Part shown: positions 27,685 to 43,289 of the stretch, piece by piece | Layout of the letters: each line of letters opens with the position of its first letter | How positions within the stretch are numbered: position 1 is the first letter of the stretch | Virus record (IMG/VR): IMGVR_UViG_3300042331_000303 | From: a virus | Lineage: Duplodnaviria; Heunggongvirae; Uroviricota; Caudoviricetes | Length of the DNA stretch: 64,000 nucleotides | Direction: 5' to 3' (one strand) | Notes under the pieces: generated by a model | Database searches by the model: none | What the model was told of the DNA's origin: nothing | What the model saw: the letters and a program-made list of their open reading frames with translations, nothing else | Translations under genes and position numbers: made by a program

Positions 27685-27691
27685 GGCTCCA

Positions 27692-28347: not shown

Positions 28348-28607
28348 GGATCGTGGGGGAGCACCAGACTTCGCGCTGAGCGGTTGCGGCGGAGCGACCG
28401 CGCTCGTAGGCTGGACGGGTGGAACTGTTCTCCGTCCAGCTCATCATGGGTACCCCTCCGTCCACCGCGACGGATGGGCCTGTAGCCAAGGCGGCCATCC
28501 TCGACCCGTTCAGTCCGGTCTATGACGCTGAGGCTTCGCTCTACATTACGAGCAGCACCTACGTTGAGATCATCGAGAACGGCTCCTTCACCCAGCCGGC
28601 CTAACCG

Positions 28608-29567: not shown

Positions 29568-29572
29568 TCACA

Positions 29573-29908
29573 ATGGCCTCGTCCGACTCTCCCATCCTCA
29601 TCACCTCCGCGACCGTAGCTGTTTCCACCACGGCAGTCGCGCCGGGCATGGCCATCCCCGACAACTGCCGCAGCATCCTGATCTTCTCGACCTCGGCGTT
29701 GATCTGGGGCATCGCTACGGCAGGTGCCGGCGCGCTAACGCTCGGGACCAACGCCTTCCTCCTGCCCGCCAACACGCCCCTCACGCTCGGCATCGGTACG
29801 ATCCAGGAGCGAGGAGACATGGCGACGGCAGGAAAGGGCATCGTTTACGCTGGTTCGGCAGGTTCCACGCCGACAGTCTACATCGCCTACAACTGCGTGT
29901 TCGGCTAA
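29573..29908 (+). CDS. small structural-like protein (111 aa)
   Basis: The protein is Ala-, Thr- and Gly-rich. The gene lies immediately after 28608..29567. Confidence 0.55.
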   Translation: MASSDSPILITSATVAVSTTAVAPGMAIPDNCRSILIFSTSALIWGIATAGAGALTLGTNAFLLPANTPLTLGIGTIQERGDMATAGKGIVYAGSAGSTPTVYIAYNCVFG

Positions 29909-30169
29909 TCAGCTCGACGCTTGACAAACCGACCCCTACAAGGTTACGGGGGGCGGATGAAGGCGAAACTCACCGACGACCCGCATCATGCCACGCTGGG
30001 CGTCGCAGGAGAGGCCCTGCACCAGCTCTACGGGCGCCACAACGTGGCCTGCTCGTTCGACCTCTGGAACGCCGTGGCAGCGCACATCCCGGCAGTCGCC
30101 GCCGTGCGGTAGCAACGAAATCTTCTCGGCACGTTTGACAACTGACACCCCCCAAGATAGAGAGGAAGC

Positions 30170-30841
30170 ATGTCCAGCCCCGAACCCGTCTACACCATCC
30201 AAGTTGGAACCGGCGACCTCGCCGCGGCCCTCGTCCAGCGCGAGATCGGCCGCATCGAGGCGGAGATCGAGACGCACAAGCTGCGCTCAGCCTCGGCTGA
30301 GAACCTCATCGAGACCCTCATCCTCCAGCCCCTGGGGGAACGCATCCTCGCCCGCTACGAAGGCCAGCTTGTCGCCATGCGCACCCTGTGCAACGGCTTC
30401 GAGATGCTGATGAAGCGGCCTTGTACGATGGTAGCGCCCGCGCCTTTCTCCACCTCGACCTCACGCTTCAGCCAGTACATCTACGCGGCGAAGAACTCCC
30501 GCTCCGCGCTTCATGGCGCGCGGGTACAGAAGGGAGATGTGCTCCGGGCCCGCTGGAGCATTACCTGCGAGATGAACGGGAAGGATGTCGACCTCTACTC
30601 CGCGGAGCTGTGTGAGTCCATCTCGGGGAGTGAGATCGAGGACACGAACCGGTGGCTTGAGGACATCGAGCAAGCCTACTACGCCATCCACAGCCTCTCG
30701 GACAAGCTCGCCGACCTTCCCCGCATCGAGCGAGAAGCACGGGCACGGCTCACCGAGACCTTCCTGTCGAAGCAGCCGGAGCTGCTGGCCCAGCTCGACG
30801 CGGTCTTCCCTCGGATGCTCGCGAAGGATGAGGCTGGGTAG
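30170..30841 (+). CDS. hypothetical protein (223 aa)
   Basis: ORF track; a TTGACA-N18-TAGAGA promoter lies upstream at about 30134-30163. Confidence 0.6.
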   Translation: MSSPEPVYTIQVGTGDLAAALVQREIGRIEAEIETHKLRSASAENLIETLILQPLGERILARYEGQLVAMRTLCNGFEMLMKRPCTMVAPAPFSTSTSRFSQYIYAAKNSRSALHGARVQKGDVLRARWSITCEMNGKDVDLYSAELCESISGSEIEDTNRWLEDIEQAYYAIHSLSDKLADLPRIEREARARLTETFLSKQPELLAQLDAVFPRMLAKDEAG

Positions 30842-30843
30842 CC

Positions 30844-31581
30844 ATGCCGAAGATCCAGCTCCTCTCCGACATCCACACCGAGCACGACCGGGACTGGGGC
30901 GATGCGTTCATCGAGTCGCTCGACCCCAGCGTCTGCGACGTCCTCGTTCTCGCCGGAGACATCGGCTCCTCCAACACCTACTACCGAGCGCTCGTGAAGA
31001 TCGCTCAGAAGTACGCGCCGAAGCCCGTCGTCTACGTCCACGGGAACCACGAGTTCTACGGCTCGGAGCGGCTCGCTGTGCGAGCCCAGATGGCCGTCCT
31101 ACCCCCCAACGTCTACTGGCTCGACCACACCTCCGTCGTGCTTGGGGGGATCGAGTTCTTGGGCGGGACCGGGTGGTTCGACCAGCGGGCGGTCAATCCT
31201 GCGCTCTGCCCCGGCTTCTCCGACTTCCATTGGATCAGAGGGCTCAATACGTGGGTGTGGACCGAGCACGCGGCCTTCCGCAAGTTCCTCTCCAGCCGGC
31301 CTCCGTCGAGCCAGAAGCGCATCTTGGTGATGCACCACGCGCCCAGCTACAAGGCAGTCCTCCCCCGCTGGCAGCGATCGAACAGCAACGACTTCTTCTT
31401 CGTAGACGTCGAGAAGGAAGTCACAGCGCTCGCGCCGGCCGCGGTCCTTCATGGCCACATGCACTCGGGGCTCCAGTACCAGATCGGCGACATCCCGGTC
31501 TACGCCAACCCGCGAGGGTACCCGAAGGAGATGCAAGAGCTGCCGTTCAACCCAAACTTCGTCATCGAGGTCAACCCGTGA
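30844..31581 (+). CDS. calcineurin-like metallophosphoesterase
   Basis: The protein has LSDIHTEHD, LVLAGDIG and VHGNHEF motifs (the D-x-H...GD...GNHE signature). Confidence 0.8.
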   Translation: MPKIQLLSDIHTEHDRDWGDAFIESLDPSVCDVLVLAGDIGSSNTYYRALVKIAQKYAPKPVVYVHGNHEFYGSERLAVRAQMAVLPPNVYWLDHTSVVLGGIEFLGGTGWFDQRAVNPALCPGFSDFHWIRGLNTWVWTEHAAFRKFLSSRPPSSQKRILVMHHAPSYKAVLPRWQRSNSNDFFFVDVEKEVTALAPAAVLHGHMHSGLQYQIGDIPVYANPRGYPKEMQELPFNPNFVIEVNP

Positions 31582-31820
31582 AAGAGAAGCACTACACGCT
31601 TCGCATGCTGCCGGAGGACGTGGTCGTCTCGAAGCACGCCTCTGAGGTTGCGGCCCAGCGCGCTGGCCGCCTCTACTGCCACACGGACCTGTTCTCGGGA
31701 GCAGTGAAGCGGACGGTGGCTATTGATGGGCCGGAAGGGACGCAGCACTGGAAGCTCGTCCCGCAGAGCACCCACGATGGGTACGGCGCGCGCCTGCGCT
31801 ACGTCCGGTTCACGCCATGA
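31578..31820 (+). CDS. hypothetical protein (80 aa)
   Basis: The GTG at 31578 overlaps the stop. This is the plausible tail of ORF 30585..31820. Confidence 0.4.
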   Translation: MKEKHYTLRMLPEDVVVSKHASEVAAQRAGRLYCHTDLFSGAVKRTVAIDGPEGTQHWKLVPQSTHDGYGARLRYVRFTP

Positions 31821-32314
31821 CGCCCCCTCTGGAAGCGTGGCGGCAGGACTGGTGGGAAGAGGTCGAGCCCGGCAACGGGATCAAGCTCTGGCGCAAGGAC
31901 GGACTCGTCCTTGGGGTGTCGGCGCCGGCCTCCTTCGATCCGCAGGCCGGAAGCGCCGTCGTGGCGAACTTCTCCGCTCGCCGCCCCTGTACGGCTCCGA
32001 CCGGTTCCCCTCTGGACGTACACGGAGACTCGCCAGAGGCGCTGGTAGCGGCCGTAGACGCGGCGTGGGGGGCACGGCAGGAAGTGTTCCCGGCGCGCCC
32101 CGGCATGGTCGTCTTCCACGACCGTGCGGTGTGGACGATCGTACAGGCCGAGGAGAGCAGCTTCACCATCCTCCCCCGACACCGCGGCCAGCGAGTCCTG
32201 CGGTACGCACTCGTCCCCTACGCTGAGCAGAACGGCCGGCGTCACGTTGAGCCCTTCTCGGCAGAAATGCCGGTCAAACTTTGGCCTTACCGATTTCTCA
32301 TTCTGGCCCCTTGA
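31817..32314 (+). CDS. hypothetical protein (165 aa)
   Basis: ORF track; the start forms an ATGA overlap. Confidence 0.6.
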   Translation: MTPPLEAWRQDWWEEVEPGNGIKLWRKDGLVLGVSAPASFDPQAGSAVVANFSARRPCTAPTGSPLDVHGDSPEALVAAVDAAWGARQEVFPARPGMVVFHDRAVWTIVQAEESSFTILPRHRGQRVLRYALVPYAEQNGRRHVEPFSAEMPVKLWPYRFLILAP

Positions 32315-32345
32315 CGACTGACAGACCCCGAGGTACAAGTAAGCC

Positions 32346-33071
32346 ATGACGACCGACACCGACATCACCCTTCTCGCCCCCAATCAAGCGCTGGCCAACA
32401 TCTCCCGTGATGAGCTGGTGAACCTGATCGTAGACGACTTCATGGAGCGGTCTGCCGCAGCCGCGAAGGAAGCCAACAAGCGTGCCAACGCGCTGGATAC
32501 CGAAGCAGCCCATCTCCTTCGCGACATCTACCGCAGCGCTCGCGAGAACCTCCTGGCCGCTGCCACGCGACACAGCGACGCGCTGGTACAGGTCCTCGAA
32601 ACGATGGGGTACAAGCGCGTGAACGTCACGTACGAGCCGCTCCCTTTGCCGGAGCAGGTCTTCGCGGTCAACGGCCTGTTCGATCCCAACGGCCACCGTA
32701 GTGGACGCTCTGCCGAGCGGGCAGAGATGACCCTCGTCGAAGCCATCAACACCATGACGCTGGGCGTCCGCCTCGACAAGCCCATCTACGTGGACATCGA
32801 ACTCCGCGCGATGGAGGTGGGGAGCTACCTGGATACGAGCATCCGGTTTCGGGCGCCAGCGCCCGAGGTGGACCTGACGCTCTACAACGCCAAGAAGGCT
32901 GAGGCCGCCAAGCACCAGCGGTACTTCTCGGAGATCACGGAAGCCCAGAACCCCGAGAAGCTGCGCCGCAAGGCCCTCGCTACCCTCACCCGCGAAGCCC
33001 TTTCGCAGGGCGGCGTGACGCTCCAAGGGGGCCTCCCCACCATGCCCCTCGCTCTTCCCCTCGCCCCCTGA
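32346..33071 (+). CDS. hypothetical protein (241 aa)
   Basis: ORF track; a TTGACG-N17-TACAAG promoter lies upstream. Confidence 0.6.
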   Translation: MTTDTDITLLAPNQALANISRDELVNLIVDDFMERSAAAAKEANKRANALDTEAAHLLRDIYRSARENLLAAATRHSDALVQVLETMGYKRVNVTYEPLPLPEQVFAVNGLFDPNGHRSGRSAERAEMTLVEAINTMTLGVRLDKPIYVDIELRAMEVGSYLDTSIRFRAPAPEVDLTLYNAKKAEAAKHQRYFSEITEAQNPEKLRRKALATLTREALSQGGVTLQGGLPTMPLALPLAP

Positions 33072-33093
33072 CCCCCAACCGACCGAGAACATC

Positions 33094-33834
33094 ATGTCCC
33101 AGAAGCTCCACCAAGTCATCGCCTCCTCCAAGGACATCAAGGCCCGTACCGAGAAGGACTGGACCGAGATCTACCAGGGCTTCAAGAAGCCCGACCTGTA
33201 CGCCGGGCACACCCGCACCTACTCCCCCCTCAACGATGGCGGCGAGACGCTCCAGCCCGAGACCAAGCCGGTCCTGCGCAACGCCTCGGAGCAGCTCGAA
33301 GTGGTCCGCAACATCCTCTCGGAGCAGGTCAACCTCCAGGCTGGCATCGACGTCGCCAACCAGCAGGCGGCGGCGGACGTGGTGGTCGGCGGGCAGATCC
33401 TGCTCACGAAGGTGCCCGTGAACACGCTCCTGTACCTGGAGCACCGCCTCAAGGGCGTCATCGAGACCCTCACCGATGCCCCGGTCCTCGCGGACGGGTT
33501 GGAGTGGGTGCCGGACAGCTCGCCGGGCCGGTTCCGCGTGGCGACCCCCGAGATCACCAACCGAACGACCAAGACGCCGGAGCGCTTCGTGAAGGCCGAG
33601 GCGACCGACAAGCACCCCGCGCAGGTGGACATCATCCACATCGACCGCACCGTGGGAACCTGGACGAAGGTGGCGCAGTCCGGGGCGCTCCTCCCGGCTC
33701 GCCGCCGGACCCTGCTCCGACGCGCGAACAGCCTGCTCGACGCCGTGAAGTCCGCCCGTGAGGAAGCCAACACGGTCAAGGTCACCGAGTCGACCGTGGG
33801 CTCCACGCTGTCCGACTACCTCTTCGGGGACTGA
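33094..33834 (+). CDS. hypothetical protein (246 aa)
   Basis: ORF track. Confidence 0.6.
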   Translation: MSQKLHQVIASSKDIKARTEKDWTEIYQGFKKPDLYAGHTRTYSPLNDGGETLQPETKPVLRNASEQLEVVRNILSEQVNLQAGIDVANQQAAADVVVGGQILLTKVPVNTLLYLEHRLKGVIETLTDAPVLADGLEWVPDSSPGRFRVATPEITNRTTKTPERFVKAEATDKHPAQVDIIHIDRTVGTWTKVAQSGALLPARRRTLLRRANSLLDAVKSAREEANTVKVTESTVGSTLSDYLFGD

Positions 33835-33924
33835 TCCCCCGCAACCTTCCACCCCTGCCCGGCCGAAAGGACCGGGCTCCACCGAGGCATAGCTCACTGT
33901 CACGATCAGACTGATTCTCACCCA

Positions 33925-34118
33925 ACTCTCTTGCTGGTTCAAGCCCAGCCCCCGGCACCAACCAACTGAGCCGGGGTGGCGGAATGGTAGACGCACCCAC
34001 TATAATGGGCGAGAGAAGTGATAAGTTCCTCGTATAGTTTGCCTCAGTCGAGTGCCCACAAATCTCAGTCGCCACGCCACCCAATCCGAGATGCTGGTTC
34101 AAGTCCGGCTCGGGCCGC
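33925..34118 (+). tRNA. tRNA-derived region: orphan 3' end (T-arm + acceptor + ACCA), a Leu-like 5' half, and a second T-arm/CCA end
   Basis: 33925-33960 reads GCTGG-TTCAAGC-CCAGC CCCCGGC A CCA. 33970-34000 reads GCCGGGGTGGCGGAATGGTAGACGCAC; its acceptor is complementary to the upstream 3' end. 34092-34118 reads GCTGGTTCAAGTCCGGC TCGGGCC G CCA. No single canonical cloverleaf could be folded. Confidence 0.35.
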
Positions 34119-34323
34119 CACCTACGCAGGAAGCCCCTCTCTTCCTGCACAATGGCCCGATAGAGTAATCGTTATCTCGCGGATTCTAAGTTCAGAGCGT
34201 GGACGAAAGCTGTTGAGGGGAGAACACGACACTCGACAACTGGCCTATCAAGCCGGATAACCCAGGGGCGGCCGCCGGCTATGCGGCCGCTCCACCACTT
34301 CTACCTCCTTCCGGAATAGACCA

Positions 34324-35088
34324 ATGCCGGTCAACTTCAAGGACGTGTTCGCACGGACGACCTACCCTTCGGGGGAAACCCACCTGAAGAAGATCGTGCT
34401 GGGAGACGGCCTCGGGACGATCCGAGCGGATGTCCGCAACTTCAACGACCTCTGCGATGTAGTCGTAGCCAATCGGCTGATGAAGCGGATCTACAACGAC
34501 GTCGAGATCGAGTGGTACATCCCCTACTTCCCGTTCGCCCGCGACGACCGGCGCAGCACACCCAACGATGGGTTCGAGCTGGAGCTGGCGCTCGACCTCG
34601 TGCGTCGGGAGAACCTCAACGTGGTCATCCTCGACCCCCATTCCGATGTGGCGGGGCAGCTTCCCCACATCACCCAAGCAAGCGTTGTGGCTCGATTCCG
34701 CAGCGTAGGCTTCATCCTTCCCACCGACCTGTTCGTCATCCCCGACGCAGGCGCGACCAAGAAGGCGTACACCTGGCTCGGCCGGAACGACTACGTGCAG
34801 GGCCTCAAGCAACGAGACACGGCGACCGGCAAGCTCTCCAACTTCCAGTTGCTCGACGCGGACAAGGTGAAGGGCCGAGACTGTGTGATCGTGGACGACA
34901 TCTGCGATGCCGGCGGCACGTTCCTCGGGCTGGCCAAGCTCCTGCGAGAGAACGGCGCCGCGAAGTTGACTCTGGTCGTCTCGCACGGCCTCTTCACCAA
35001 GGGCCGCGAAGTGCTCTCTCCTGCGTTCGACCACGTCTACGCCGCCAGCGACAACTACGATTTCTTCCCCCACTACCCCCGCTACTGA
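34324..35088 (+). CDS. ribose-phosphate pyrophosphokinase (Prs)-like phosphoribosyl-transferase-fold enzyme (candidate Adps)
   Basis: The protein has ILDPHSD, FVIPDAGATKKA, CVIVDDICDAGGTF (PRPP-binding) and LVVSHGLF motifs, which match Prs motifs. Confidence 0.75.
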   Translation: MPVNFKDVFARTTYPSGETHLKKIVLGDGLGTIRADVRNFNDLCDVVVANRLMKRIYNDVEIEWYIPYFPFARDDRRSTPNDGFELELALDLVRRENLNVVILDPHSDVAGQLPHITQASVVARFRSVGFILPTDLFVIPDAGATKKAYTWLGRNDYVQGLKQRDTATGKLSNFQLLDADKVKGRDCVIVDDICDAGGTFLGLAKLLRENGAAKLTLVVSHGLFTKGREVLSPAFDHVYAASDNYDFFPHYPRY

Positions 35089-35095
35089 GTCTCCC

Positions 35096-36559
35096 ATGCG
35101 CATCCCCACCCAGCACATCATCGACAGCTACAAGGCTGACCACCGCCGCCAGTACCCGCCGGGTACCGATCTGGTCTTCTCCAACTGGACTGGACGCAAG
35201 AGCCGCATCCCGGGGATCGAGGAGACCATCCACTTCGGCCTCTCCTACTACATCCAGGAGCTTCTGGAGCGTGGCTGGACCGAGCACTTCTTCTCGCAGC
35301 CCAAGGAGAAGGTCATCAAGAAGTACATCCGCCGGCTGGCGGCGTTCGGCGTGACCGCCCACCCAGACCACATGGAAGCCCTGCACGACCTCGGCTACCT
35401 CCCCATCGAGATCTGGAGCCTCCCGGAAGGGACGCGCGTTCCCATCGGAGTGCCGAGCTTCGTGATCTGGAACACGCACTGCGACTTCTCGTGGCTCACC
35501 AACTACTTGGAGACGAGTCTCTCGAACACGATCTGGCAGGCGACCACCTCGGCGACCCTCGCGGCCGAGTACCGCCGCATCCTCGACCACGTCGCCAAGA
35601 CCACTGGCGGCGCTCCCGAGTTCGTGAGCTGGCAGGCTCACGACTTCTCGGCCCGCGGGATGGCCGGGGTCGAATCCGCGGCTCTGTCGGGCGCGGGTCA
35701 CCTCACCTCATTCACGGGCTCCGACACGGTCTTCGCCGTAGACTTCGTGGAGGAATACTACGGGGCCGACGTCGACACGGAGCTGGTTGCCGGGTCGGTC
35801 CCCGCGACCGAGCACTCGGTGATGTGCGCCGGGTCGAAGGAAGGCGAGGTGGAAACCTACCGGCGCCTGCTCACTGAGGTCTACCCGACGGGGATTGCGT
35901 CCATCGTCTCGGACACCTGGGACTACTGGGGCGTCTGGACGAACATCCTTCCTCAGCTCCGCGACGTGATCCTCCAGCGAGATGGCAAGCTGGTCATCCG
36001 TCCCGACAGTGGAGACCCGGTGAAGGTCATCTGTGGCGACATCGACGCCCCCGAAGGCTCCCCCGCGTTCAAGGGCTCCTTCGAGCTGGCCTGGGAGCTG
36101 TTCGGAGGGACCGTCACCGACAAGGGCTACAAGGTGCTCGACCCCCACATCGGGCTCATCTACGGGGACTCCATCACCCTCGACCGAGCCGCACAGATCT
36201 GTGCGGGGCTCATGGCGAAGGGCTTCGTGCCGGGCATGGTCCTCGGCATCGGATCGTACACCTACCAGTACAACACGCGAGATACCTTCGGCTTCGCGAT
36301 GAAGGCGACCGCCTGTTCCGTCGAAGGAGAGCTGCGGGAGATCTTCAAGGACCCGAAGACCGACGACGGCACCAAGAAGTCCGCGCGGGGGCTGCTTGCG
36401 GTGTTCCGTGACGCCGAGGACAAGCTCTTCCTCAAGCAGCAGGCTTCGTGGCATGACGTGACGCACTGCGAGTTCCGAAAGGTCTTCAGCAACGGCTACT
36501 CGATGAACCTGCCTACCCTCGCTGAGATCCGCGACCGCGTCGCAGCAGGCCGCCTGTGA
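35096..36559 (+). CDS. nicotinamide phosphoribosyltransferase (NAMPT/NadV)-like enzyme (candidate Namat)
   Basis: The protein is 487 aa, the size of NadV. The gene lies 8 nt after the Prs-like gene. GSDT and GDS motifs are present. The family assignment rests on overall resemblance. Confidence 0.7.
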   Translation: MRIPTQHIIDSYKADHRRQYPPGTDLVFSNWTGRKSRIPGIEETIHFGLSYYIQELLERGWTEHFFSQPKEKVIKKYIRRLAAFGVTAHPDHMEALHDLGYLPIEIWSLPEGTRVPIGVPSFVIWNTHCDFSWLTNYLETSLSNTIWQATTSATLAAEYRRILDHVAKTTGGAPEFVSWQAHDFSARGMAGVESAALSGAGHLTSFTGSDTVFAVDFVEEYYGADVDTELVAGSVPATEHSVMCAGSKEGEVETYRRLLTEVYPTGIASIVSDTWDYWGVWTNILPQLRDVILQRDGKLVIRPDSGDPVKVICGDIDAPEGSPAFKGSFELAWELFGGTVTDKGYKVLDPHIGLIYGDSITLDRAAQICAGLMAKGFVPGMVLGIGSYTYQYNTRDTFGFAMKATACSVEGELREIFKDPKTDDGTKKSARGLLAVFRDAEDKLFLKQQASWHDVTHCEFRKVFSNGYSMNLPTLAEIRDRVAAGRL

Positions 36560-36765
36560 ACGCCTTCATGGCCTTCTTTGTTGGGTTCGTCGTGAGCATC
36601 ATGTTCCTCGCCGTCCTGTTGCCTGAGCCCGCCGCCACTCGTCGAGCCGCACTCTGCGAAGAAGCCTGCGACCCCGCCACAGCCCAAGTCCGAGAGGGCG
36701 ACTGCTGGTGTACGCAGGGCGACGTCTCCACCCGAATCACCCCCAAAGCATGGACGACCCCGTGA
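36556..36765 (+). CDS. small membrane protein (69 aa)
   Basis: A GTG start gives MNAFMAFFVGFVVSIMFLAVLL, a transmembrane helix. Confidence 0.4.
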   Translation: MNAFMAFFVGFVVSIMFLAVLLPEPAATRRAALCEEACDPATAQVREGDCWCTQGDVSTRITPKAWTTP

Positions 36766-37010
36766 CCACTCTGCCTCCGCCCGCTACGATGTCCCCCGAC
36801 GACTTCGCCTTCTACTCCAAGCAGCTCTACGAGATCGCCCTCACGCTCGGATGCCCCCCATCGGAGTGCCAGCCCGGCATGGTGCTCTTCCAGCGCGCCG
36901 GCAACGGCTGGATCCTCTACGCCGGAATCTGGGCTTCGGACGTGGTGGCGCCGGGGGCTGGCGACCGCCTCTCGGCGATCTCGGCCCTCTCGCTCCTCTC
37001 CGCAGTCTAA
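36750..37010 (+). CDS. hypothetical protein (86 aa)
   Basis: The ATG at 36750 gives MDDPVTTLPPPATMSPDDF... Confidence 0.4.
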   Translation: MDDPVTTLPPPATMSPDDFAFYSKQLYEIALTLGCPPSECQPGMVLFQRAGNGWILYAGIWASDVVAPGAGDRLSAISALSLLSAV

Positions 37011-37046
37011 CCCCAGTACCTCCGACCCATTCGAGTGGGCCTGCCC

Positions 37047-37075
37047 TTGACAGGTGACATACCGGCAGATACAAG
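37047..37075 (+). promoter_or_regulatory. promoter TTGACA-N17-TACAAG overlapping an AAGGAG ribosome-binding site
   Basis: TTGACA lies at 37047-37052 and TACAAG at 37070-37075; the ATG is at 37084. Confidence 0.4.
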
Positions 37076-37083
37076 GAGCAGCC

Positions 37084-37524
37084 ATGGCACCTTCCTCCCC
37101 CCAAGCCCGCGCTATCGCGCTCCTCGAATCGGTGGACTACTTCTCGGAGAAGTACGACACCTACATGGTCGTCTCCCGCGTTCTCGGGCTGCTGCGGGGG
37201 TACGCCCTCCCTGAAGAAGTCCTCCAGACGTACTCCTGCAAGACGTGCGACGCCGAAGGGATCAAGCTCTGGCGAGGCATCCATTCGAGCTGTGAGGGCT
37301 GGTGCGCGAAGTGTGCCTGTGCGCAGGCAGGTCTTCCCGACGACATCGACGAGGAAGGCCGGCGCATGGGAACGTATGGAACCTCCGACCAGATCTACTC
37401 GCCCCTGAAGGGTCTGAGCCTCCTCCCCTGGGTCCCCGCGCCAGACGGGGGGACGTGGGGCTACACCTCGGTTCCGCCCGAGGGCGTCGAGTGGTGGCGT
37501 GCGCTGCCGACGAGGCTCGCATGA
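37084..37524 (+). CDS. Cys-rich hypothetical protein (146 aa)
   Basis: The protein contains CKTCDAEG...CEGWCAKCAC. Confidence 0.55.
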   Translation: MAPSSPQARAIALLESVDYFSEKYDTYMVVSRVLGLLRGYALPEEVLQTYSCKTCDAEGIKLWRGIHSSCEGWCAKCACAQAGLPDDIDEEGRRMGTYGTSDQIYSPLKGLSLLPWVPAPDGGTWGYTSVPPEGVEWWRALPTRLA

Positions 37525-39116
37525 ACCTCCCCGCCTGCTGTGTGCGGTGCCTTCGGTACCAGCCGGGCCAGCCTCTCCCCTGTGATGCCGACCGGCCGAC
37601 GCTGGAGTGGCTCCGTGACGTCCTGCTGGGCGGCAGGACGGACTGCGGCCTCTGCCCCAGCTACACGCTCGCCCTGTCCACCGACCAGACGGCAGCGCTC
37701 GAACAGGTGAAGAGCCGCATCGAGGCGCACTGGGCGGCGCACAAGGCACACCAGAACGGCACCCGGGAAGAGGCGCCGGTGCGACCCAATCTCGTGCTGG
37801 CGGGTGCCGCCGGCACGGGCAAGACGACCATCCTGCTCGAACTGATCCGCACCTTCGTGGGCAAGGTCATCTTGCTGGCGGCGCCGACCGGAAAGGCTGC
37901 GGCGCGGCTCCGAGAGATCACAGGAGAGCAGACTCGGACCATGCACGGTCTGATCTACCTCGCGCCGGAGGACCAAGGGAAGTGTCCAGCCTGCGAGGTC
38001 TGGTCGAAGGAACTGGCGATATCCAAGCTCGACATGCGGAAGAAGGGCCTCACGGACCGATCCTGCCCGACCTGCAACGCGACCTTCCCGCTCGACCAAG
38101 AGATCGAAGCCAAGCTCGTCTTCAAGGATTCCAAGGCAATCGGAGAGATGGCGCCTCCGGACTTGGTCATCGTGGACGAAGCCTCAATGGTCAACACGCA
38201 GCTCCACGCGGACTTCTTTCGAGCGCTCCACACCCGGTGCGCCGTCCTCTACGTTGGAGATCGCGAGCAGCTCCCGCCGGTCGATGGGCAGTGGGGCCCC
38301 GACTTCGCCAACCCCGCGGGCCTGCTCGACCAAGTCCACCGGCAGGCGCTCAACAGCCCCATCATCCTCGCCGCGACTCAGCTCCGCAAGGGGCAGTGGT
38401 CGCGGCCGTTCCCGGCGCCGACGACCGAGCTGCTCAAGGTGTTCCGCAACGCCACTCCGACCATGGCGGCGGAGTGGCTGGTAGCCCACCGGGAGCAGAA
38501 CATCGACGCGACCTTGCTCACCTACACCAACGCGACTCGGCAGAGTCTCAATGTGATCGTTCGCAAGATGCGCGGACTGACGGAAGCTCCGACGCCGCTG
38601 GCGCAGGGAGATCGGATGGTCTCCCTCTGCAACAACGACTCGCTGGGCTGCATGAACGGCGAAGTGTTCGTCGTGGAAGACGCCTTCTACGTGATGGAGG
38701 GCGTGCTCAAGGTCACCCTCCGCGAGCGCCCGACGGCTGAGGTCTACGTCCCATCCGAGATCATGGGACAGCCTCGGATCGAATACACCTCGTTCATGCG
38801 TTCCGTGCGAGGCAAGTGGGACCGAGCCATCGAGCGATGGCAGAAGCAGATCGACGCCCACACGCGAAAGTACCCGGACGGCGAGAGCTACGCTCGCCAG
38901 TTCCTCCGCCTCCTTCCTCCAGATGCCTTCCTGCACGCGGACTACGGGGAGTGCCTCACCACGCACAAGAGCCAAGGATCGGAATGGCCCGCAGTCGGTC
39001 TGGTTTGGGACCGAGCTTGCTGGGGGATGTGGAAGAACGCACCGGAGGACGCCCGTCGCTGGGCCTACACGGCGCTGACTCGGGCGCGTGAGTCCTTCGC
39101 TGTCTTCTTCCTCTGA
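37521..39116 (+). CDS. RecD/Dda-like superfamily-1 DNA helicase
   Basis: The protein has GAAGTGKTT (Walker A), VIVDEASMV (Walker B) and VGDREQLPPV. The likely start is the ATG at 37521, overlapping the upstream stop as ATGA. The ORF track start at 37302 is upstream and out of context. Confidence 0.85.
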   Translation: MNLPACCVRCLRYQPGQPLPCDADRPTLEWLRDVLLGGRTDCGLCPSYTLALSTDQTAALEQVKSRIEAHWAAHKAHQNGTREEAPVRPNLVLAGAAGTGKTTILLELIRTFVGKVILLAAPTGKAAARLREITGEQTRTMHGLIYLAPEDQGKCPACEVWSKELAISKLDMRKKGLTDRSCPTCNATFPLDQEIEAKLVFKDSKAIGEMAPPDLVIVDEASMVNTQLHADFFRALHTRCAVLYVGDREQLPPVDGQWGPDFANPAGLLDQVHRQALNSPIILAATQLRKGQWSRPFPAPTTELLKVFRNATPTMAAEWLVAHREQNIDATLLTYTNATRQSLNVIVRKMRGLTEAPTPLAQGDRMVSLCNNDSLGCMNGEVFVVEDAFYVMEGVLKVTLRERPTAEVYVPSEIMGQPRIEYTSFMRSVRGKWDRAIERWQKQIDAHTRKYPDGESYARQFLRLLPPDAFLHADYGECLTTHKSQGSEWPAVGLVWDRACWGMWKNAPEDARRWAYTALTRARESFAVFFL

Positions 39117-39197
39117 CCGAGATAATCAGCCGAACTGAAATATCTGCATGGACTGGATTGACAAGCCAGCCCACCGAGATAAGAGAAGAGGACCAAG

Positions 39198-40274
39198 ATG
39201 AACCCCCCCACCCTGCCAGTCCTGCCAGCCACCCTGTCGAACCTACAAGGTGCTCGTCTCGGGTCGATCGTGCAGATCATGCTTGGCACTGCGTCGTATG
39301 CCTACAAGAAGGTCTCGGAGAATGAGCCTGCATGGCGGCTCATCATGCGTGCTGGTGGTCTCGCTTCCAGCCGTCAGCTCTCTGACGAACCTACCGCCTT
39401 GTTCCATCAGACGCAGGTCGCCGTGCCAGAGGGGAAGGACGCTGCGGTGTACCGCTCCTTGCCTCCGGGATCTGTGGTCTGGATGCGATCTACGTTGGCT
39501 GGAGAATGGACTCGGCACGCGCGGGAAGAAACCAGCACCCTCACTTCGGGGGACATCATCGTCACTGAACTGGGGCCTGCTGTCCCTGCAACTCCTCCGG
39601 AGCCTTCCATGACCATCTCGCTCTACGACATCCAGCAGGCCGCTGTCGGCTCGACGCTCCAGACGAGCGTAGTAGGTACGCTCTTTGGCAAGACGGGCCT
39701 CAACCAGTGGAACTCCGTGAGCGGCAAGCCCACGAACTACTCCGACGCGCAGATCTCCTCGTGGTGTCGCTCGACCTCTGTCTTGCGTGCTCCCTCAGAT
39801 CGGACTTCCGAACTACTGGGCGCTCTCGCAGGCGCCGCCGCCCCATCTTCAACCAGCAAGGACAACAACATGGCCAACCGCCCCGCCGACTTCTCCGCCT
39901 CCGCTTCCGAAACCCTCGACATGCTCAAGGAGGCGACCGCCACGGGCATCAAGGCCGGGCTCGCGTCCGAGCTGGCCGACCGCCTCGTCGAGACCATCGA
40001 GAGCAAGTTCGGCAGCGCGCCGATGTACCCGGCGCTGCTCAAGACCCCTCTCGGCCGCCGCGGCCTCTCCTACGGTGCCCCGGTGCTCCTCTACTTCCTC
40101 GCCGCCACGTTCCCGGAGCGCATCCCGGTGAACGCCGACGGGGTCAAGGCCGCCGCCCGCTACGCGGTCATCGGCCACTCGGTCAAGCTCATCGCGCCGC
40201 TCTTCGCCCTGCTCACCCCGCTCTGGGAAGAGCTGGCGAACTTCGCCAAGTCCGAACTGCGCGAAGTCAAGTAG
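39198..40274 (+). CDS. hypothetical protein (358 aa)
   Basis: ORF track; a TTGACA-N17-TAAGAG promoter lies upstream at about 39158-39186. Confidence 0.55.
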   Translation: MNPPTLPVLPATLSNLQGARLGSIVQIMLGTASYAYKKVSENEPAWRLIMRAGGLASSRQLSDEPTALFHQTQVAVPEGKDAAVYRSLPPGSVVWMRSTLAGEWTRHAREETSTLTSGDIIVTELGPAVPATPPEPSMTISLYDIQQAAVGSTLQTSVVGTLFGKTGLNQWNSVSGKPTNYSDAQISSWCRSTSVLRAPSDRTSELLGALAGAAAPSSTSKDNNMANRPADFSASASETLDMLKEATATGIKAGLASELADRLVETIESKFGSAPMYPALLKTPLGRRGLSYGAPVLLYFLAATFPERIPVNADGVKAAARYAVIGHSVKLIAPLFALLTPLWEELANFAKSELREVK

Positions 40275-40385
40275 CGCTCCCCGCCGACCCTGCCCGCTGA
40301 CCCCTGCCGCCCAACCAGCAGCAGGGGTTCGGGCACTCGTGCGCCCTGATCCCACAACCTGCCATCCTGCACCCGGAGCACCCCC

Positions 40386-42869
40386 ATGAAGTTCGCCCTC
40401 CGAAACTACGCTGGTCAGATCAAGAAGTTCTTCATCGCCGAGGAGCGGACGCTCCCTCCGGTTTCGCTCTCCGCGGAGGTCGGGCACCACATCCTCGTGG
40501 TCGACCGCTCCGGCTCCATGTACTACTCGATGACCGAGCTTCGCTCGATGGTCGAGAAGGTGCTGACCATCGAGGAGTTCGCCAACGCCGGCCAGCTCGT
40601 CAGCCTGTTGTCCTACTCCTCGCAGGGCGACCTCACGGTCCACTTCGAGCGGACGCCCGTGCAGGATGTCCTCGCTCCAGGCTCCCACCACGTCGAGTCG
40701 ATCCGCCAGCTCCGCGCCACCGCGTTCACCTGCGTCTCGCAGGCTCTGGAGTACGCCTCCAAGCTCGTCCGCCCTACCGAGACGACCGGCGTCAGCGTCC
40801 ACACCGACGGCTATTTCAACGACCGTTCCCCGACGCTGGAGCAGCGCGCCATCGACCGTTGGATCGAACAGATGCGCCCGGCCAAGAACGTGTTCGTGAA
40901 CACCATCGCCTATGGCGGCTGGTGTGACTACGTTCTGCTCGATCGAATGGCCAACGCGCTCTCCGGCAAGATGGTCCGAGCTTCGACTGCCAAGGACGTC
41001 TACCAAGCGCTCCACGACACGTCCAAGCTGCTCGCCGGCCGCACCGTGCCTTCGGTCACGTTGGACTCCGACGGCTCGTGGCAGGTCGCCTACGCCCCGA
41101 AGGCGCGCAAGGTCAACGGGACCGCGCAGGACATCACGCTCCGCGGCCTGAGCCCCGACGAGACGCCGCGGGTCTGGCGCTTCCGGCAGGTAACGGAAGC
41201 GGCCTACCGCAAGTCGCAGGAAGTCGAGAACGGCGACCTCACGCCCATCTACGCCTTCGCCCGTACCTCGCTGGCCGCCGGCCGCCTCAACGACGCGAAG
41301 TACGCCTTCGTCACGACCCGCGACGCCCGGCTCGGGCAGTTCGCCAAGGCCATCACGCCGGAGCAGCTCGCGGACTTCGCTGAGGCCCTCGACGGGGCGC
41401 TCTACGGTCGTCCTGGTGTCTACACCGCGGAGGGCACCGGCTACGGGCTGTCGGGAGGGAAGTGTTCGATCCCGCAGCTCTGCGACATCCTCCTCCACCA
41501 CCGGAACTCGTGGTCTCTCGACCTCCCCACCTTCCTCGCGGGCTACCAGAAGCGCGGGCTGAAGCGTCTTCAGGGGAGCTGGGTGACCGACCCGGAGACG
41601 AACGAGACCACCTTCGTCCCCGCGTCATACAATCTGGTGAGCACGGAGGACCAGACCTGCCTCTCGGTCTCGGCGTTCGAGTTCAACAACTCCACGGCTA
41701 CGATCAACATGCTCGTGACGCAGAAGGCGAACCTGACCGACGCCAAGACGGGCAAGGTCATCCCGATGGTGGGAGGACAGAAGCTCGATCTGCGCCAGCA
41801 CAACTTCTACACCCTCGTCGGAGACGGTACGGTCAACGCCAAGGTGCTCCCGATCTTCGTGGCGACCCAGAGCCTCTGGCGATCGCTCGTCTCCCTCGGT
41901 GTGGCGGAAGACAACGGCTTCCGACCCGGCCAGCCCCACGTCATCGACCTGACCGAGCTTCCGGTCCTCGACTACGCCAGCGACCTAGCTCCGCCCATGG
42001 ACGTGTTCAGCCAGCTCGCCGGCTGCAAGATCCTGCTGAGCCTCATCAACGCCGCTCTTCCGGCCGGCGGCGAGGCCGCTCTCGACCTGACGGACGAGCA
42101 GAAGGCCGATCTGTCGGCGCACGACCTCACGGCCAAGCTCAACTTCTCGCCGCCGACGACGACGCCCTACACCGATCTGGCCGTTGCCGTGGCGACGGGG
42201 TTGGTAGACCTCCGGACGAGCTACAAGGTCGAGTTCCTCGGGACGGACATCGCGGGGCTCGGAGACCTGTACTCGGCCAACGCGGCGGTGCAGCGATACC
42301 TGACGGCCAAGAAGGACGACAAGGAGCTGGAGAAGTTCACGGTCGCTGATGCGCTCGCGGATGGCGTCTCGATCTCGCTGACGCCGCCGAAGAAGCTCAA
42401 CTCGGTGGATGCCTTCACCCTCCCGTACATCTGTGACTTCTTCCGCGTCGGGTACAACAAGGAGCACTTCATGACCATCACGGCGCTGCTCAAGGAGACC
42501 GGCTACTCGGGCAAGTGGCTCGCGGACTACCTGCCGGAGAAGCTCGTCGAGATCAAGAAGTACGTCGAGGAGTACCAGGAGGGCCTCTACAGCAGTCAGG
42601 TCCGGCCCGCTGCGTTCTACATCGGTTCCACCGGCATGCTCCCCGACACCTGGGGCGAGGTGCCGGCGCTCGATGCTGACAGCCTCAAGGCGCGCATCCC
42701 GACGCTCGGCCTGACCAAGAAGCAGAAGGAGAACGGCACCTTCTTCGTCCTCGACAAGATCGAGGGACAGACGCTGATGGTCCTTGGCGTCTACGCGGAG
42801 AACGTCCCCTTCTCGACCCCGGCAGGTGTGGCTGCGGCGAAGGCAATCTCGTCCGTCGAAGCCGAATGA
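40386..42869 (+). CDS. von Willebrand factor A (vWA) domain protein (827 aa)
   Basis: HHILVVDRSGSMYYSMTEL matches the DxSxS MIDAS motif at the start of a vWA fold. The rest of the protein is a long extension with no recognised motifs. Confidence 0.75.
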   Translation: MKFALRNYAGQIKKFFIAEERTLPPVSLSAEVGHHILVVDRSGSMYYSMTELRSMVEKVLTIEEFANAGQLVSLLSYSSQGDLTVHFERTPVQDVLAPGSHHVESIRQLRATAFTCVSQALEYASKLVRPTETTGVSVHTDGYFNDRSPTLEQRAIDRWIEQMRPAKNVFVNTIAYGGWCDYVLLDRMANALSGKMVRASTAKDVYQALHDTSKLLAGRTVPSVTLDSDGSWQVAYAPKARKVNGTAQDITLRGLSPDETPRVWRFRQVTEAAYRKSQEVENGDLTPIYAFARTSLAAGRLNDAKYAFVTTRDARLGQFAKAITPEQLADFAEALDGALYGRPGVYTAEGTGYGLSGGKCSIPQLCDILLHHRNSWSLDLPTFLAGYQKRGLKRLQGSWVTDPETNETTFVPASYNLVSTEDQTCLSVSAFEFNNSTATINMLVTQKANLTDAKTGKVIPMVGGQKLDLRQHNFYTLVGDGTVNAKVLPIFVATQSLWRSLVSLGVAEDNGFRPGQPHVIDLTELPVLDYASDLAPPMDVFSQLAGCKILLSLINAALPAGGEAALDLTDEQKADLSAHDLTAKLNFSPPTTTPYTDLAVAVATGLVDLRTSYKVEFLGTDIAGLGDLYSANAAVQRYLTAKKDDKELEKFTVADALADGVSISLTPPKKLNSVDAFTLPYICDFFRVGYNKEHFMTITALLKETGYSGKWLADYLPEKLVEIKKYVEEYQEGLYSSQVRPAAFYIGSTGMLPDTWGEVPALDADSLKARIPTLGLTKKQKENGTFFVLDKIEGQTLMVLGVYAENVPFSTPAGVAAAKAISSVEAE

Positions 42870-43201: not shown

Positions 43202-43289
43202 TTCCTCTGTTCGGTGGCGTGCTTCCCACCGCTTCACGCGCACCCAAAGGCCCGTTTCCGGGAGCCTGCCCTCCCTCCACCTGTGAGCC

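What the first reader, a model, noticed from the sequence alone, without database searches (positions are those of the whole stretch)
34324..36559. Prs-like + NAMPT-like gene pair: candidate NAD+ reconstitution (NARP1-type) anti-defence module
A ribose-phosphate-pyrophosphokinase homolog carries recognisable ATP/ribose-5-P and PRPP-binding motifs (DPH, FVIPDAGATKKA, VIVDDICDAGGT). A 487-aa NAMPT/NadV-size homolog follows 8 nt later. Such phage-borne pairs have recently been shown to rebuild NAD+ from ADP-ribose and nicotinamide, through ADPR-pyrophosphate (Adps + Namat). This lets phages overcome NAD+-depleting defences (Thoeris, DSR, SIR2/SEFIR systems). The nearby metallophosphoesterase (30844..31581) and macrodomain protein fit the same metabolite economy. 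A membrane micro-protein (36556..36765) is translationally coupled to the NAMPT-like gene.
Basis: partly seen in the sequence, partly recalled or inferred. Interest (0 to 1): 0.7.

Follow-up and report, generated by a model that had tools for sequence, protein, structure and literature searches.

The report
Phage NAD+ rebuilding gene pair (NARP1)
Two adjacent phage genes that look like ordinary nucleotide-salvage enzymes carry the sequence signatures of the known NARP1 pair, which rebuilds NAD+ from the fragments left by bacterial NAD+-destroying defences; this makes them a divergent new example of a known counter-defence system rather than a new kind of system.

Summary
ORFs 34324..35088 (254 aa) and 35096..36559 (487 aa) lie 7 nt apart on the + strand of a phage-like, 65% GC sequence.

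- The 487-aa protein is a Namat, not a classical Nampt. Its best solved relative is SpβL1 Namat (545 bits, against about 190 for human or bacterial Nampt). 18 of 20 ligand residues are identical and two are conservative changes. It carries the diagnostic motif GSYTYQYNTRD.
- The 254-aa protein is an Adps, not a Prs. It falls below the curated Prs cut-off and has the DDICD…F donor loop and the catalytic Lys. It lacks the Prs C-terminal module. It groups with validated Adps in 100 of 100 bootstraps.

A close relative from freshwater metagenomes has a clean 1,968-nt in-frame deletion of exactly this pair. The module is therefore dispensable and accessory.

- The macrodomain protein is real (24778..25278) but lies 9 kb away, so this is not a NARP1-AP operon.
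- The metallophosphoesterase shows no link to NARP1.
- The 69-aa membrane ORF is a real gene under purifying selection.

In passing: the 490-nt "gap" upstream holds two circularly permuted tRNA-like RNAs. With the DUF7873 gene they form a widely conserved module that I found described nowhere.

The parts
34324..35088 (+). adps: ADP-ribose pyrophosphokinase (Prs-like), 254 aa, first gene of NARP1
   Evidence: Family scores: phrog_619 at 184 bits. TIGR01251 (Prs) at 71.9 bits, below its cut-off of 113; by comparison ICP1 Adps scores 98, Bas63 Adps 138 and E. coli Prs 423.

Residues of the ICP1 Adps structure that are conserved: R87, H121, D161, K185, D212, D213, I214, C215, D216 and F221, as window R73, H106, D141, K162, D191, D192, I193, C194, D195 and F200. 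F18 becomes Y14.

The Prs α11-α12 C-terminal module is absent.

In a neighbour-joining tree it groups with validated Adps and excludes 26 canonical Prs in 100 of 100 bootstraps.
35096..36559 (+). namat: nicotinamide ADP-ribose transferase (Nampt-like), 487 aa, second gene of NARP1
   Evidence: PDB search: 9w5x/9w5w scores 545 bits, E=1e-162. I identify this entry as the SpβL1 Namat of PMC12774641 because its residue numbering matches the paper. Human and Xanthomonas Nampt score about 190 bits.

18 of 20 NAD+-contacting residues are identical, and A362→S359 and F392→Y388 are conservative. The selectivity-clamp helix reads GSYTYQYNTRD, matching the Namat consensus GSXΦXΦXΦTRD. The clamp-loop residue R37 aligns with R40.

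Identity is 53% to SpβL1 Namat and about 30% to NARP2-type Nampt.
36556..36765 (+). 69-aa ORF with one predicted N-terminal membrane helix. Its GTG start overlaps the namat stop codon (GTGA). It is a co-translated neighbour and is not shown to belong to NARP1.
   Evidence: Mean Kyte-Doolittle hydropathy is 2.78 over residues 4-22.

In relative L338 the ORF and the GTGA overlap are kept, and 64 of 69 residues are identical. Codon differences are 15 synonymous to 5 non-synonymous in this frame, against 2:18 and 4:16 in the other two frames.

It has no homologue in the 80 NARP1 loci searched by tblastn and no family hit. It is retained in the relative that lacks NARP1.
24778..25278 (+). Macrodomain protein, 166 aa. 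It is distal (9 kb upstream), is a possible helper that acts on ADP-ribose derivatives, and is not part of the operon.
   Evidence: PDB 5e3b 'Macrodomain protein', E=5e-20 over the full length. There are weaker matches to ADP-ribose 1''-phosphate phosphatase (6lfu) and TARG1.

An HMM of Adpp-like macro proteins from NARP1 loci hits it at E=4.8e-10, and it is the only significant hit in the six-frame translation of the window. The Pfam Macro model itself is sub-threshold.

Best explanation
The two genes are a NARP1 operon. During infection of a host that carries an NAD+-cleaving defence (Thoeris, DSR1/2, SIR2-HerA, SEFIR, Kongming or SPARSA types), NAD+ is broken into ADP-ribose and nicotinamide.

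Step 1: the 254-aa Adps binds ADP-ribose in the groove that Prs uses for ADP and ribose-5-phosphate. It transfers the β,γ-pyrophosphate of ATP to the 1'' hydroxyl of the distal ribose, giving ADPR-pyrophosphate and AMP. K162 would be the catalytic lysine, and the DDICDAGGTF loop would hold the ATP phosphates.

Step 2: the 487-aa Namat uses the conserved Nampt catalytic core (F184, D210, R302) to displace the pyrophosphate with nicotinamide, which gives NAD+ directly. The adenine of ADPR-PP would be clamped between Y388 and Y392 of the GSYTYQYNTRD helix and R37 of the β1-β2 loop of the partner subunit.

No host NMN adenylyltransferase is needed.

What is shown here: gene order, family membership, conservation of the residues that the published structures and mutants identify, and dispensability in a natural deletion variant. 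What is inferred: the enzyme activities and the anti-defence role.

The module is an accessory cassette in a large (at least 131 kb) freshwater phage, probably one that infects Actinomycetota.
For: Gene pair and domains.

Namat
- Best solved relative is 9w5x/9w5w, 545 bits against about 190 bits for Nampt.
- Residue map and SCH/SCL motifs, and 53% against 30% identity.
- Motif definition and mutant data come from PMC12774641.

Adps
- Scores below the curated Prs threshold, as the biochemically validated ICP1 Adps does.
- Residues and C-terminal truncation match the signature described in PMC13586617.
- Bootstrap support for the Adps clade is 100 of 100.

Linkage
- 73 of the 80 closest viral Namat homologues have an Adps on the same strand, mostly less than 150 nt upstream.
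- All fetched close Adps relatives are followed directly by Namat.
- Of 80 genome loci of the Prs family, only the one Adps-clade member (L178, an Acidimicrobiales MAG) has a Namat neighbour. This mirrors the 97% association reported by Osterman et al..

No Nmnat.

Natural deletion of exactly this pair in L338/L339.
Against: - No biochemical or genetic data exist for this protein pair.
- The Adps is very divergent. Identity is at most 37% to any phage-record Adps over partial alignments (29-31% to ICP1 and Bas63 over the full length), and 63% to its nearest metagenomic relative.
- Two aromatic residues that contact adenine in ICP1 Adps are not conserved (F92→S78, F223→G202). They are not conserved in Bas63 Adps either.
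- Published Namat retains about half of Nampt's PRPP→NMN activity in vitro, so some classical NMN synthesis cannot be excluded.
- Only 64 kb of a contig of at least 131 kb was examined, so an Nmnat gene elsewhere in the genome is not excluded.
- No promoter-like or terminator-like sites were found around the pair.
Confidence: 0.88

Rival explanations
1. Classical salvage. The first enzyme is a streamlined Prs that makes PRPP. The second is a NadV/Nampt that makes NMN from PRPP and nicotinamide. A host enzyme (NadR, NadD or NadM) then completes NAD+. The pair would boost the NAD+ or nucleotide pool in general rather than recycle ADP-ribose.
For: Pfam, NCBIfam and the source annotations name the proteins this way. 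The Namat scores above the cut-off of NCBIfam NF006629, 'nicotinate phosphoribosyltransferase' (519.6 against 405). Published Namat still turns PRPP into NMN in vitro.
Against: The same annotations were shown to be wrong for Bas63 genes 79-80. The Prs-like protein fails the curated Prs cut-off, lacks the Prs C-terminal module and has DDICD…F instead of DDMID…L. The Nampt-like protein has the full adenine clamp. That clamp is absent from Nampt and from the NARP2 enzymes, which read GGGLLQ..RD at this position. Canonical prs genes almost never sit next to a Namat homologue (0 of 79).
Confidence: 0.07
2. Extended NARP1 (NARP1-AP-like or RyDEP-like). The distal macrodomain protein, the metallophosphoesterase or both would convert modified ADP-ribose species (ADPR-1''-phosphate from aRES, or cyclic ADPR signals) into linear ADPR that feeds the pair.
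For: The macro protein resembles NARP1-linked Adpp-like macro proteins (E=4.8e-10) and has weak matches to yeast Poa1p-type ADPR-1''P phosphatase. Helper enzymes of this kind are documented for other NARP1 operons. About 16% of related loci (13 of 80) carry a macro gene beside NARP1.
Against: The macro gene is 9 kb and about 19 genes away, and the published criterion is within two genes. Its best match is the SCO6735/ALC1 class of macrodomains rather than Poa1p. A metallophosphoesterase homologue lies within 10 kb in only 4 of 80 NARP1 loci, and two of those are on the opposite strand. Both genes are retained in the relative that lost NARP1. No PDB sequence relative was found for the metallophosphoesterase.
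Confidence: 0.2
3. A decaying or non-functional remnant. The pair would be on its way out of this phage lineage, as the deletion in the relative might suggest, and would no longer be active.
For: A close relative has deleted 1,968 nt of the pair.
Against: Both ORFs are intact and full length. All catalytic residues are conserved. GC3 is 0.86-0.89, as in neighbouring genes. 100% identical copies occur in at least five metagenome assemblies. Relative L169 keeps the pair with the same spacing despite only 63% Adps identity.
Confidence: 0.03

Closest known systems
NARP1 (Adps + Namat) of Bacillus phage SpβL1, E. coli phage Bas63, Vibrio phage ICP1 and Mycobacterium phage DyoEdafos (Osterman et al. 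2024; PMC12774641; PMC13586617; PMC13232231)
   Same: Two-gene operon in the order adps then namat. Adps-clade Prs-like enzyme with the DDICD…F loop, the catalytic Lys and no α11-α12 module. Namat with the GSXΦXΦXΦTRD clamp helix and the clamp-loop Arg. Catalytic core identical.
   Different: Strongly diverged: Adps is 29-31% identical to ICP1 and Bas63 over the full alignment, and Namat is 45-53% identical to validated Namats. It sits in a 65% GC, uncultured freshwater phage with no megablast match in INPHARED. Adps is shorter (254 aa against 280-293) with a short N-terminus, and F92 and F223 of ICP1 are not conserved. Activity is untested.
NARP1-AP (Adps - Adpp macro phosphatase - Namat, Vibrio phage Gary; bioRxiv 10.64898/2026.01.28.702374)
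   Same: The genome encodes a macrodomain protein that resembles NARP1-linked macro proteins.
   Different: The macro gene is not in or next to the operon (9 kb away). It is closest to SCO6735/ALC1-type macrodomains. It persists when NARP1 is deleted.
NARP2 (Nampt + Nmnat; Vibrio phage KVP40 type, e.g. nt-1 and Caulobacter phage CcrBL10)
   Same: Uses a Nampt-family enzyme to restore NAD+ during infection.
   Different: Only about 30% identity. NARP2 Nampt lacks the adenine clamp (GGGLLQ..RD) and is paired with an Nmnat, not a Prs-like gene. No Nmnat was found in the window.
Cellular Prs (PRPP synthetase) and NadV/Nampt salvage
   Same: Same folds and the same core chemistry: pyrophosphoryl transfer to a ribose C1 hydroxyl, and nicotinamide attack on an activated ribose.
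   Different: The substrates are ADP-ribose and ADPR-PP rather than ribose-5-phosphate and PRPP (inferred). The regulatory and filament module is lost. The protein scores below the curated Prs threshold.

Membership tests
NARP1 | The Prs-like protein belongs to the Adps clade, separate from canonical Prs | tested here: met
   In a neighbour-joining tree of 60 sequences, the window protein, ICP1, Bas63 and GRLPWR Adps and 29 Namat-linked homologues form a clade that is free of the 26 canonical Prs in 100 of 100 bootstraps. TIGR01251 scores 71.9 bits, below its cut-off of 113.
NARP1 | A Namat homologue lies immediately next to adps on the same strand | tested here: met
   The intergenic gap is 7 nt. 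The same arrangement is seen in relatives L169, L171, L172, L173 and L178.
NARP1 | Adps lacks the Prs C-terminal α11-α12 module | tested here: met
   The protein ends about 17 residues after the DHVYAASDN region, where E. coli Prs continues for about 60 more residues.
NARP1 | Adps catalytic Lys (ICP1 K185), acceptor residues (R87, H121, D161, D212, D213, D216) and the remodelled PP loop | tested here: met
   All are conserved, as K162, R73, H106, D141, D191, D192 and D195. The loop reads DDICDAGGTF, against DDMIDTGGTL in Prs. The peripheral aromatics F92 and F223 are not conserved, and they are not conserved in Bas63 either.
NARP1 | Namat selectivity-clamp helix motif GSXΦXΦXΦTRD with aromatics at positions 3 and 7 | tested here: met
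   GSYTYQYNTRD at residues 386-396. NARP2 and T4-like Nampt read GGGLLQ(Q/E)..RD at this position.
NARP1 | Namat selectivity-clamp loop supplies an adenine-stacking residue (Arg, Lys or Tyr at the third position) | tested here: met
   R37 aligns with SpβL1 R40. The geometry was not modelled.
NARP1 | Conserved Nampt-like catalytic core (SpβL1 F189, D215, R306 and the other NMN contacts) | tested here: met
   F184, D210, R302, R187, D304, G357, D358, G386 and S387 are identical.
NARP1 | No Nmnat in the same phage genome (NARP1 and NARP2 have not been found together) | tested here: inconclusive
   None was found in the 64-kb window by Pfam scans of most ORFs, by tblastn with CcrBL10 NadM, or by motif search. 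The contig is at least 131 kb and the rest was not available.
NARP1 | Enzymatic conversion ADPR + ATP → ADPR-PP, then + nicotinamide → NAD+ | not testable with these tools
   Needs purified proteins and LC-MS.
NARP1 | Rescues the phage from NAD+-depleting defence systems | not testable with these tools
   Needs infection assays. The natural deletion variant (L338) would be a ready-made comparator.
NARP1-AP | A macro-domain ADPR-1''P phosphatase (Adpp) lies within two genes of the NARP1 genes | tested here: not met
   The only macro gene (24778..25278) is about 19 genes upstream.
NARP2 | A PRPP-preferring Nampt of the KVP40 clade together with an Nmnat | tested here: not met
   About 30% identity to NARP2 Nampt, the adenine clamp is present, and no Nmnat was found.
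Canonical Prs (TIGR01251 / PRK01259) | Score above the curated family cut-off, and full length with the regulatory C-terminus | tested here: not met
   71.9 bits against a cut-off of 113, and 64 against 297. The protein is 254 aa, against about 315.
YrlA-type Y RNA (side finding: upstream RNAs) | tRNA-like domain in the order T-arm, then a closed acceptor-like stem, then D-arm, held by a long stem formed by the two flanks | tested here: met
   RNAalifold on the window and L169. Compensatory changes are seen in both acceptor stems, a D stem and hairpins. D-arm features occur in 91-95% of 103 units. The flanks are complementary, with a median z of -2.35.
YrlA-type Y RNA (side finding: upstream RNAs) | Encoded next to a Ro60/TROVE gene, with the GNCGAAN0-1G Ro-binding motif | tested here: not met
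   No TROVE domain was found in the window; the neighbouring gene is DUF7873. A GACGAAAG string is present in the window but is not conserved in L169. No Rfam family matches.

The most novel reading that the evidence does not exclude
The most novel element is not the enzyme pair. It is what sits directly upstream of it.

The 490-nt 'gap' (33835..34323) encodes two tandem, circularly permuted tRNA-like RNAs. Each runs T-arm, then 3' acceptor strand plus NCCA, then a linker, then 5' acceptor strand, then D-arm, and is closed by a long flank helix. A minihelix ending in ACCA follows them.

Together with the preceding DUF7873 gene these RNAs form a module conserved in dozens of very different phages and in Streptomyces, Catenulispora, Deinococcus and other bacteria. 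The architecture is that of YrlA Y RNAs, but the partner is not Ro60. The partner is a protein with no recognisable fold relative.

The novel reading is that this is an undescribed ribonucleoprotein family of phages and bacteria. In this phage lineage it may form a counter-defence or RNA-handling island with NARP1.
Probability: 0.45. Interest if true: 0.75.

Novelty: new member of a known kind. Interest (0 to 1): 0.35.

Why it matters
For the finding itself:
- It extends NARP1 to a deeply diverged, high-GC, uncultured freshwater phage lineage, probably one that infects Actinomycetota.
- The published structure-derived signatures (the Namat clamp motif, the Adps PP loop and the Adps C-terminal truncation) identify NARP1 even at about 30% identity to validated Adps. 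Standard annotation still calls these proteins Prs and Nampt.
- It supplies a natural comparator. A sister phage has an exact in-frame deletion of the pair, which would allow the fitness value of NARP1 to be tested in the environment or in the laboratory.

For the side finding: a conserved pairing of a protein of unknown fold with permuted tRNA mimics that carry encoded CCA ends would add a second protein partner class for Y-RNA-like tRNA mimics. It would also give a handle on what such RNAs do in phage infection.

Tried and rejected
- Megablast of 24 kb of the window against INPHARED found no match, so there is no cultured close relative.
- An exact-pattern scan of IMG/VR with a 31-nt conserved RNA segment found nothing.
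- The metagenome-contig scan with Adps found only relatives at 40% identity or less, so it gave no help on local conservation. Close relatives came instead from the protein cluster database.
- The sigma-70 promoter and intrinsic-terminator scan of 33000..37600 found nothing.
- ARAGORN found no tRNA or tmRNA in the window. Rfam found nothing at gathering scores or at E≤10 in the gap.
- I considered a two-piece tmRNA for the upstream RNAs and rejected it: there is no G3·U70, no tag reading frame and no ARAGORN or Rfam hit.
- I considered tandem ordinary tRNAs or attP tRNA fragments and rejected them. The 3' strand pairs with the downstream 5' strand, with three compensatory changes. The alternative 'normal-order' pairing is worse and does not covary.
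- I considered a functional link between DUF7873 and its RNAs on one side and NARP1 on the other, and rejected it as a general rule. None of 80 DUF7873 loci has Adps or Namat within 5 kb, and 1 of 80 NARP1 loci has DUF7873.
- The PDB sequence search with the metallophosphoesterase gave no hit.
- The first bootstrap script timed out. It was redone with a faster distance routine.
Full report
**1. Observation**

- 34324..35088 (+, ATG, 254 aa) contains ILDPHSD, FVIPDAGATKKA and VIVDDICDAGGT.
- 35096..36559 (+, ATG, 487 aa) starts after a 7-nt spacer.
- A 69-aa GTG ORF (36556..36765) overlaps the second stop codon by GTGA.

Third-codon-position GC content (GC3) is 0.86 and 0.89, typical of real genes in this 65% GC sequence. 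Pfam finds Pribosyltran and Pribosyl_synth in the first protein and NAPRTase plus NAMPT_N in the second. PHROGs finds the phage families phrog_619 and phrog_448 at 184 and 625 bits.

The window is phage-like. Downstream lie a Dda-like helicase, an SNF2 helicase, an exonuclease, a Sak4-like protein, a DNA polymerase and methyltransferases. There is no megablast match to any deposited phage. The same sequence, 100% identical, occurs in at least five metagenome assemblies and on a contig of 131.5 kb.

**2. Is it NARP1 or ordinary salvage?**

The defining papers give testable criteria. Osterman et al. define NARP1 by two features:
- an Adps clade that is separate from Prs, 97% of whose members have a Namat neighbour;
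- a Namat clade that is separate from the Nmnat-linked Nampt of NARP2.

PMC12774641 gives the structural basis of Namat specificity. This is an adenine 'selectivity clamp' made of a helix with the consensus GSXΦXΦXΦTRD and a β1-β2 loop that supplies a stacking Arg, Lys or Tyr.

PMC13586617 gives the Adps signature:
- acceptor residues retained;
- a remodelled PP loop;
- a catalytic Lys185;
- loss of the C-terminal α11-α12 module.

*Namat*
- The best solved relative is 9w5x/9w5w at 545 bits, against about 190 bits for human or Xanthomonas Nampt. I identify this entry as the SpβL1 Namat because its numbering matches the paper's D13, Y15 and R40.
- Of the 20 residues that contact NAD+ in that structure, 18 are identical. 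The other two are conservative (A362→S, a backbone contact, and F392→Y).
- The clamp helix reads GSYTYQYNTRD. This is the commonest or second commonest variant among 80 viral homologues. NARP2-type and T4-like Nampt read GGGLLQ..RD.
- R37 aligns with the clamp-loop R40.
- Identity is 53% to SpβL1 Namat, 45-51% to the Namats of Bas63, ICP1 and GRLPWR, and about 30% to NARP2 Nampt.

*Adps*
- On NCBIfam's Prs model TIGR01251 it scores 71.9 bits, below the cut-off of 113. The biochemically validated ICP1 Adps scores 98, Bas63 Adps 138 and E. coli Prs 423.
- In an alignment with 119 close homologues it conserves ICP1 R87, H121, D161, K185, D212, D213, I214, C215, D216 and F221. F18 is replaced by Tyr.
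- The loop is DDICDAGGTF, against DDMIDTGGTL in Prs.
- F92 and F223 are not conserved, and they are not conserved in Bas63 Adps either.
- The protein stops where Adps proteins stop and lacks the Prs C-terminal module.
- In a neighbour-joining tree it groups with ICP1, Bas63 and GRLPWR Adps and 29 Namat-linked homologues. All 26 canonical Prs are excluded in 100 of 100 bootstraps.

*Linkage*
- 73 of the 80 closest viral Namat homologues have an Adps on the same strand, usually less than 150 nt upstream. Four of the seven exceptions lie within 500 nt of a contig end; the other three have about 1.9-2.7 kb upstream and still lack an Adps.
- Every close Adps relative I fetched is followed by Namat.
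- Among 80 genome loci of the Prs family, only the single Adps-clade member has a Namat neighbour. It lies in an Acidimicrobiales MAG, with Adps 53% and Namat 65% identical. It is also the best clue to the host.
- No Nmnat was found in the window.

I conclude with about 0.88 confidence that this is a NARP1 pair working as published:
- ADPR + ATP → ADPR-PP + AMP (Adps, with K162);
- ADPR-PP + nicotinamide → NAD+ + PPi (Namat, with the Y388/Y392/R37 clamp and the F184/D210/R302 core).

The activities and the anti-defence role are inferred, not shown.

**3. A natural deletion**

The DUF7873 protein just upstream has a 93% identical relative on two freshwater-metagenome contigs, L338 and L339. L338 is collinear with window 24240..45798 at 82-91% nucleotide identity. 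The exception is that window 34340..36307 is missing.

The missing stretch is 1,968 nt, or 656 codons, and the junction is in frame. It leaves an 88-aa remnant made of Adps residues 1-5 fused to Namat residues 405-487. NARP1 is therefore ancestral in this lineage and dispensable, as expected of an accessory counter-defence cassette.

The macrodomain gene, the metallophosphoesterase gene, DUF7873, the upstream RNAs and the 69-aa ORF are all kept in the deletion variant.

**4. The side claims**

*Macrodomain.* It is real. ORF 24778..25278 matches PDB 5e3b 'Macrodomain protein' over its full length at E=5e-20. It has weaker matches to ADPR-1''P phosphatase and TARG1. It is the only window ORF hit by an HMM built from macro proteins found inside related NARP1 loci (E=4.8e-10). 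However, it is 9 kb away, and the published NARP1-AP definition requires it within two genes. A helper role is possible (about 0.2) but unsupported.

*Metallophosphoesterase.* The Pfam assignment is solid. A homologue lies within 10 kb in only 4 of 80 NARP1 loci, and there is no informative solved relative. I see no evidence that it belongs to the NAD+ economy. An RNA-end or nucleotide phosphoesterase role is equally open.

*69-aa ORF.* It has a hydrophobic N-terminal helix. In L338 it keeps the GTGA overlap and 64 of 69 residues. Codon changes are 15 synonymous to 5 non-synonymous in frame, against 2:18 and 4:16 out of frame. It is a real gene, probably translationally coupled to whatever lies upstream. 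It has no homologues near other NARP1 operons, so it is not shown to be a NARP1 component.

**5. Noticed in passing: the 'empty' 490 nt upstream**

The stretch 33835..34323 is 90% identical to the corresponding gap of L169, whose flanking Adps is only 63% identical. It is 96% identical to that of L338. It contains:
- a T-arm (G53 at 33937), a 3' acceptor strand CCCCGGC, then A-CCA, a 9-nt linker, the 5' strand GCCGGGG (33970..33976) and a tRNA-Leu-like D-arm;
- a second unit (G53 at 34097) with TCGGGCC, G-CCA, a 33-nt linker, GGCCCGA (34154..34160) and a D-arm;
- an 11-bp hairpin with a 7-nt loop followed by ACCA (34265..34297).

The order is that of a circularly permuted tRNA. ARAGORN and Rfam find nothing.

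Between the three relatives there are compensatory changes in both acceptor stems (C-G→A-U; G-C→A-U; A-U→G-C), in a D stem, in two small hairpins and in the terminal hairpin. The alternative 'normal-order' pairing does not covary. RNAalifold folds each unit as a long flank helix that closes a junction of T-arm, capped acceptor stem and D-arm. This is the architecture described for YrlA Y RNAs. The M. smegmatis YrlA also has a 7-bp acceptor stem, is cut by RNase P and receives CCA.

The association is with the upstream gene, not with NARP1.
- 68 of 80 IMG/VR loci that encode a DUF7873 homologue (33-42% identity) contain such units. Among the 73 loci of at least 6.5 kb, 80 of the 97 units found lie on the same strand and begin within about 700 nt downstream of the gene. 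There are often two, about 150 nt apart.
- The pattern is about 40-fold rarer in other loci (9 hits in 2.68 Mb against 105 in 0.78 Mb).
- Features that my search did not demand are present. A D stem occurs in 91% of 103 units, against 27% of shuffled controls. U8 occurs in 95%, A14 in 92% and a D-loop GG in 94%. The flanks are complementary, with a median z of -2.35. The flanks also carry conserved sequence. CCA follows the discriminator base in 41 of 105 units.
- Bacterial DUF7873 genes in Catenulispora acidiphila and Deinococcus aquatilis have the same two units downstream.
- No Rfam family matches at these sites in 11 loci, and no paper in the library mentions DUF7873.
- None of the 80 DUF7873 loci has NARP1 within 5 kb. 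The adjacency in this lineage and in L044 is therefore not a general rule.

**6. Verdict**

As a NARP1 operon this is a new, divergent member of a known kind, and interest is modest (0.35). Its added value is the natural deletion comparator and the demonstration that the published motifs work at long range. The upstream DUF7873/permuted-tRNA-like module is the more unusual object and deserves its own follow-up.

Noticed in passing
window 33884..34297 (+): unit 1 about 33884..34045, unit 2 about 34047..34237, terminal hairpin + ACCA 34265..34297: There are two tandem, circularly permuted tRNA-like RNAs. Each runs T-arm, 3' acceptor strand + NCCA, linker, 5' acceptor strand, D-arm, and is closed by a long flank helix. 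A minihelix ending in ACCA follows. ARAGORN and Rfam do not detect them. The region is far better conserved than the flanking genes (90-96% nt identity) and shows compensatory changes in every stem that varies. The architecture is that of YrlA Y RNAs, but no Ro60 gene is present.
   Followed up: partly
window 33094..33834 (+) plus the RNAs downstream; loci L044, L258-L337, L340, L341: The DUF7873 gene followed by such permuted tRNA-like units (often two) is a conserved module. It is seen in 68 of 80 viral loci and in Catenulispora and Deinococcus genomes. The DUF7873 model is confident (pLDDT 90) but has no fold relative in the PDB. No paper in the library and no Rfam family covers it. It is not generally linked to NARP1.
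   Followed up: partly
L338 11233..11499 and L339, corresponding to window 34340..36307: A sister phage from freshwater metagenomes carries an exact 1,968-nt in-frame deletion of adps-namat. This leaves an 88-aa fusion remnant (Adps residues 1-5 + Namat residues 405-487). The remnant still shows mostly synonymous differences (19:6) and still overlaps the start of the 69-aa ORF.
   Followed up: yes
window 51376..55416 (+): The DNA polymerase ORF is 1,346 aa. It has HNH-endonuclease and HTH matches in the middle (about residues 880-1130), between the polymerase segments. This suggests an inserted intein or homing-endonuclease element.
   Followed up: no
window 40386..42869 (+) and 26178..27026 (+): An 827-aa protein carries an N-terminal vWA domain (phrog_2426, function unknown). 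A 282-aa SPFH/Band-7 protein is also present. Both are conserved in the sister phage, and their roles are unknown.
   Followed up: no
L340 (Catenulispora acidiphila CP001700.1, prophage-like region): The bacterial DUF7873 + tRNA-like module lies about 7 kb from a T4-type RNA ligase 1 gene and a Pnkp-like kinase-phosphatase gene, which form a tRNA repair pair. This hints that the module may belong to RNA damage and repair conflicts.
   Followed up: no
L044 7759..7937: In the low-GC phage contig L044, the two permuted units are followed by two normal-order tRNA-like genes (one is called tRNA-Pro by ARAGORN) and a clear terminator. After these come an ORF, adps and namat. Several DUF7873 loci likewise have an ordinary tRNA right after the two permuted units.
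   Followed up: partly
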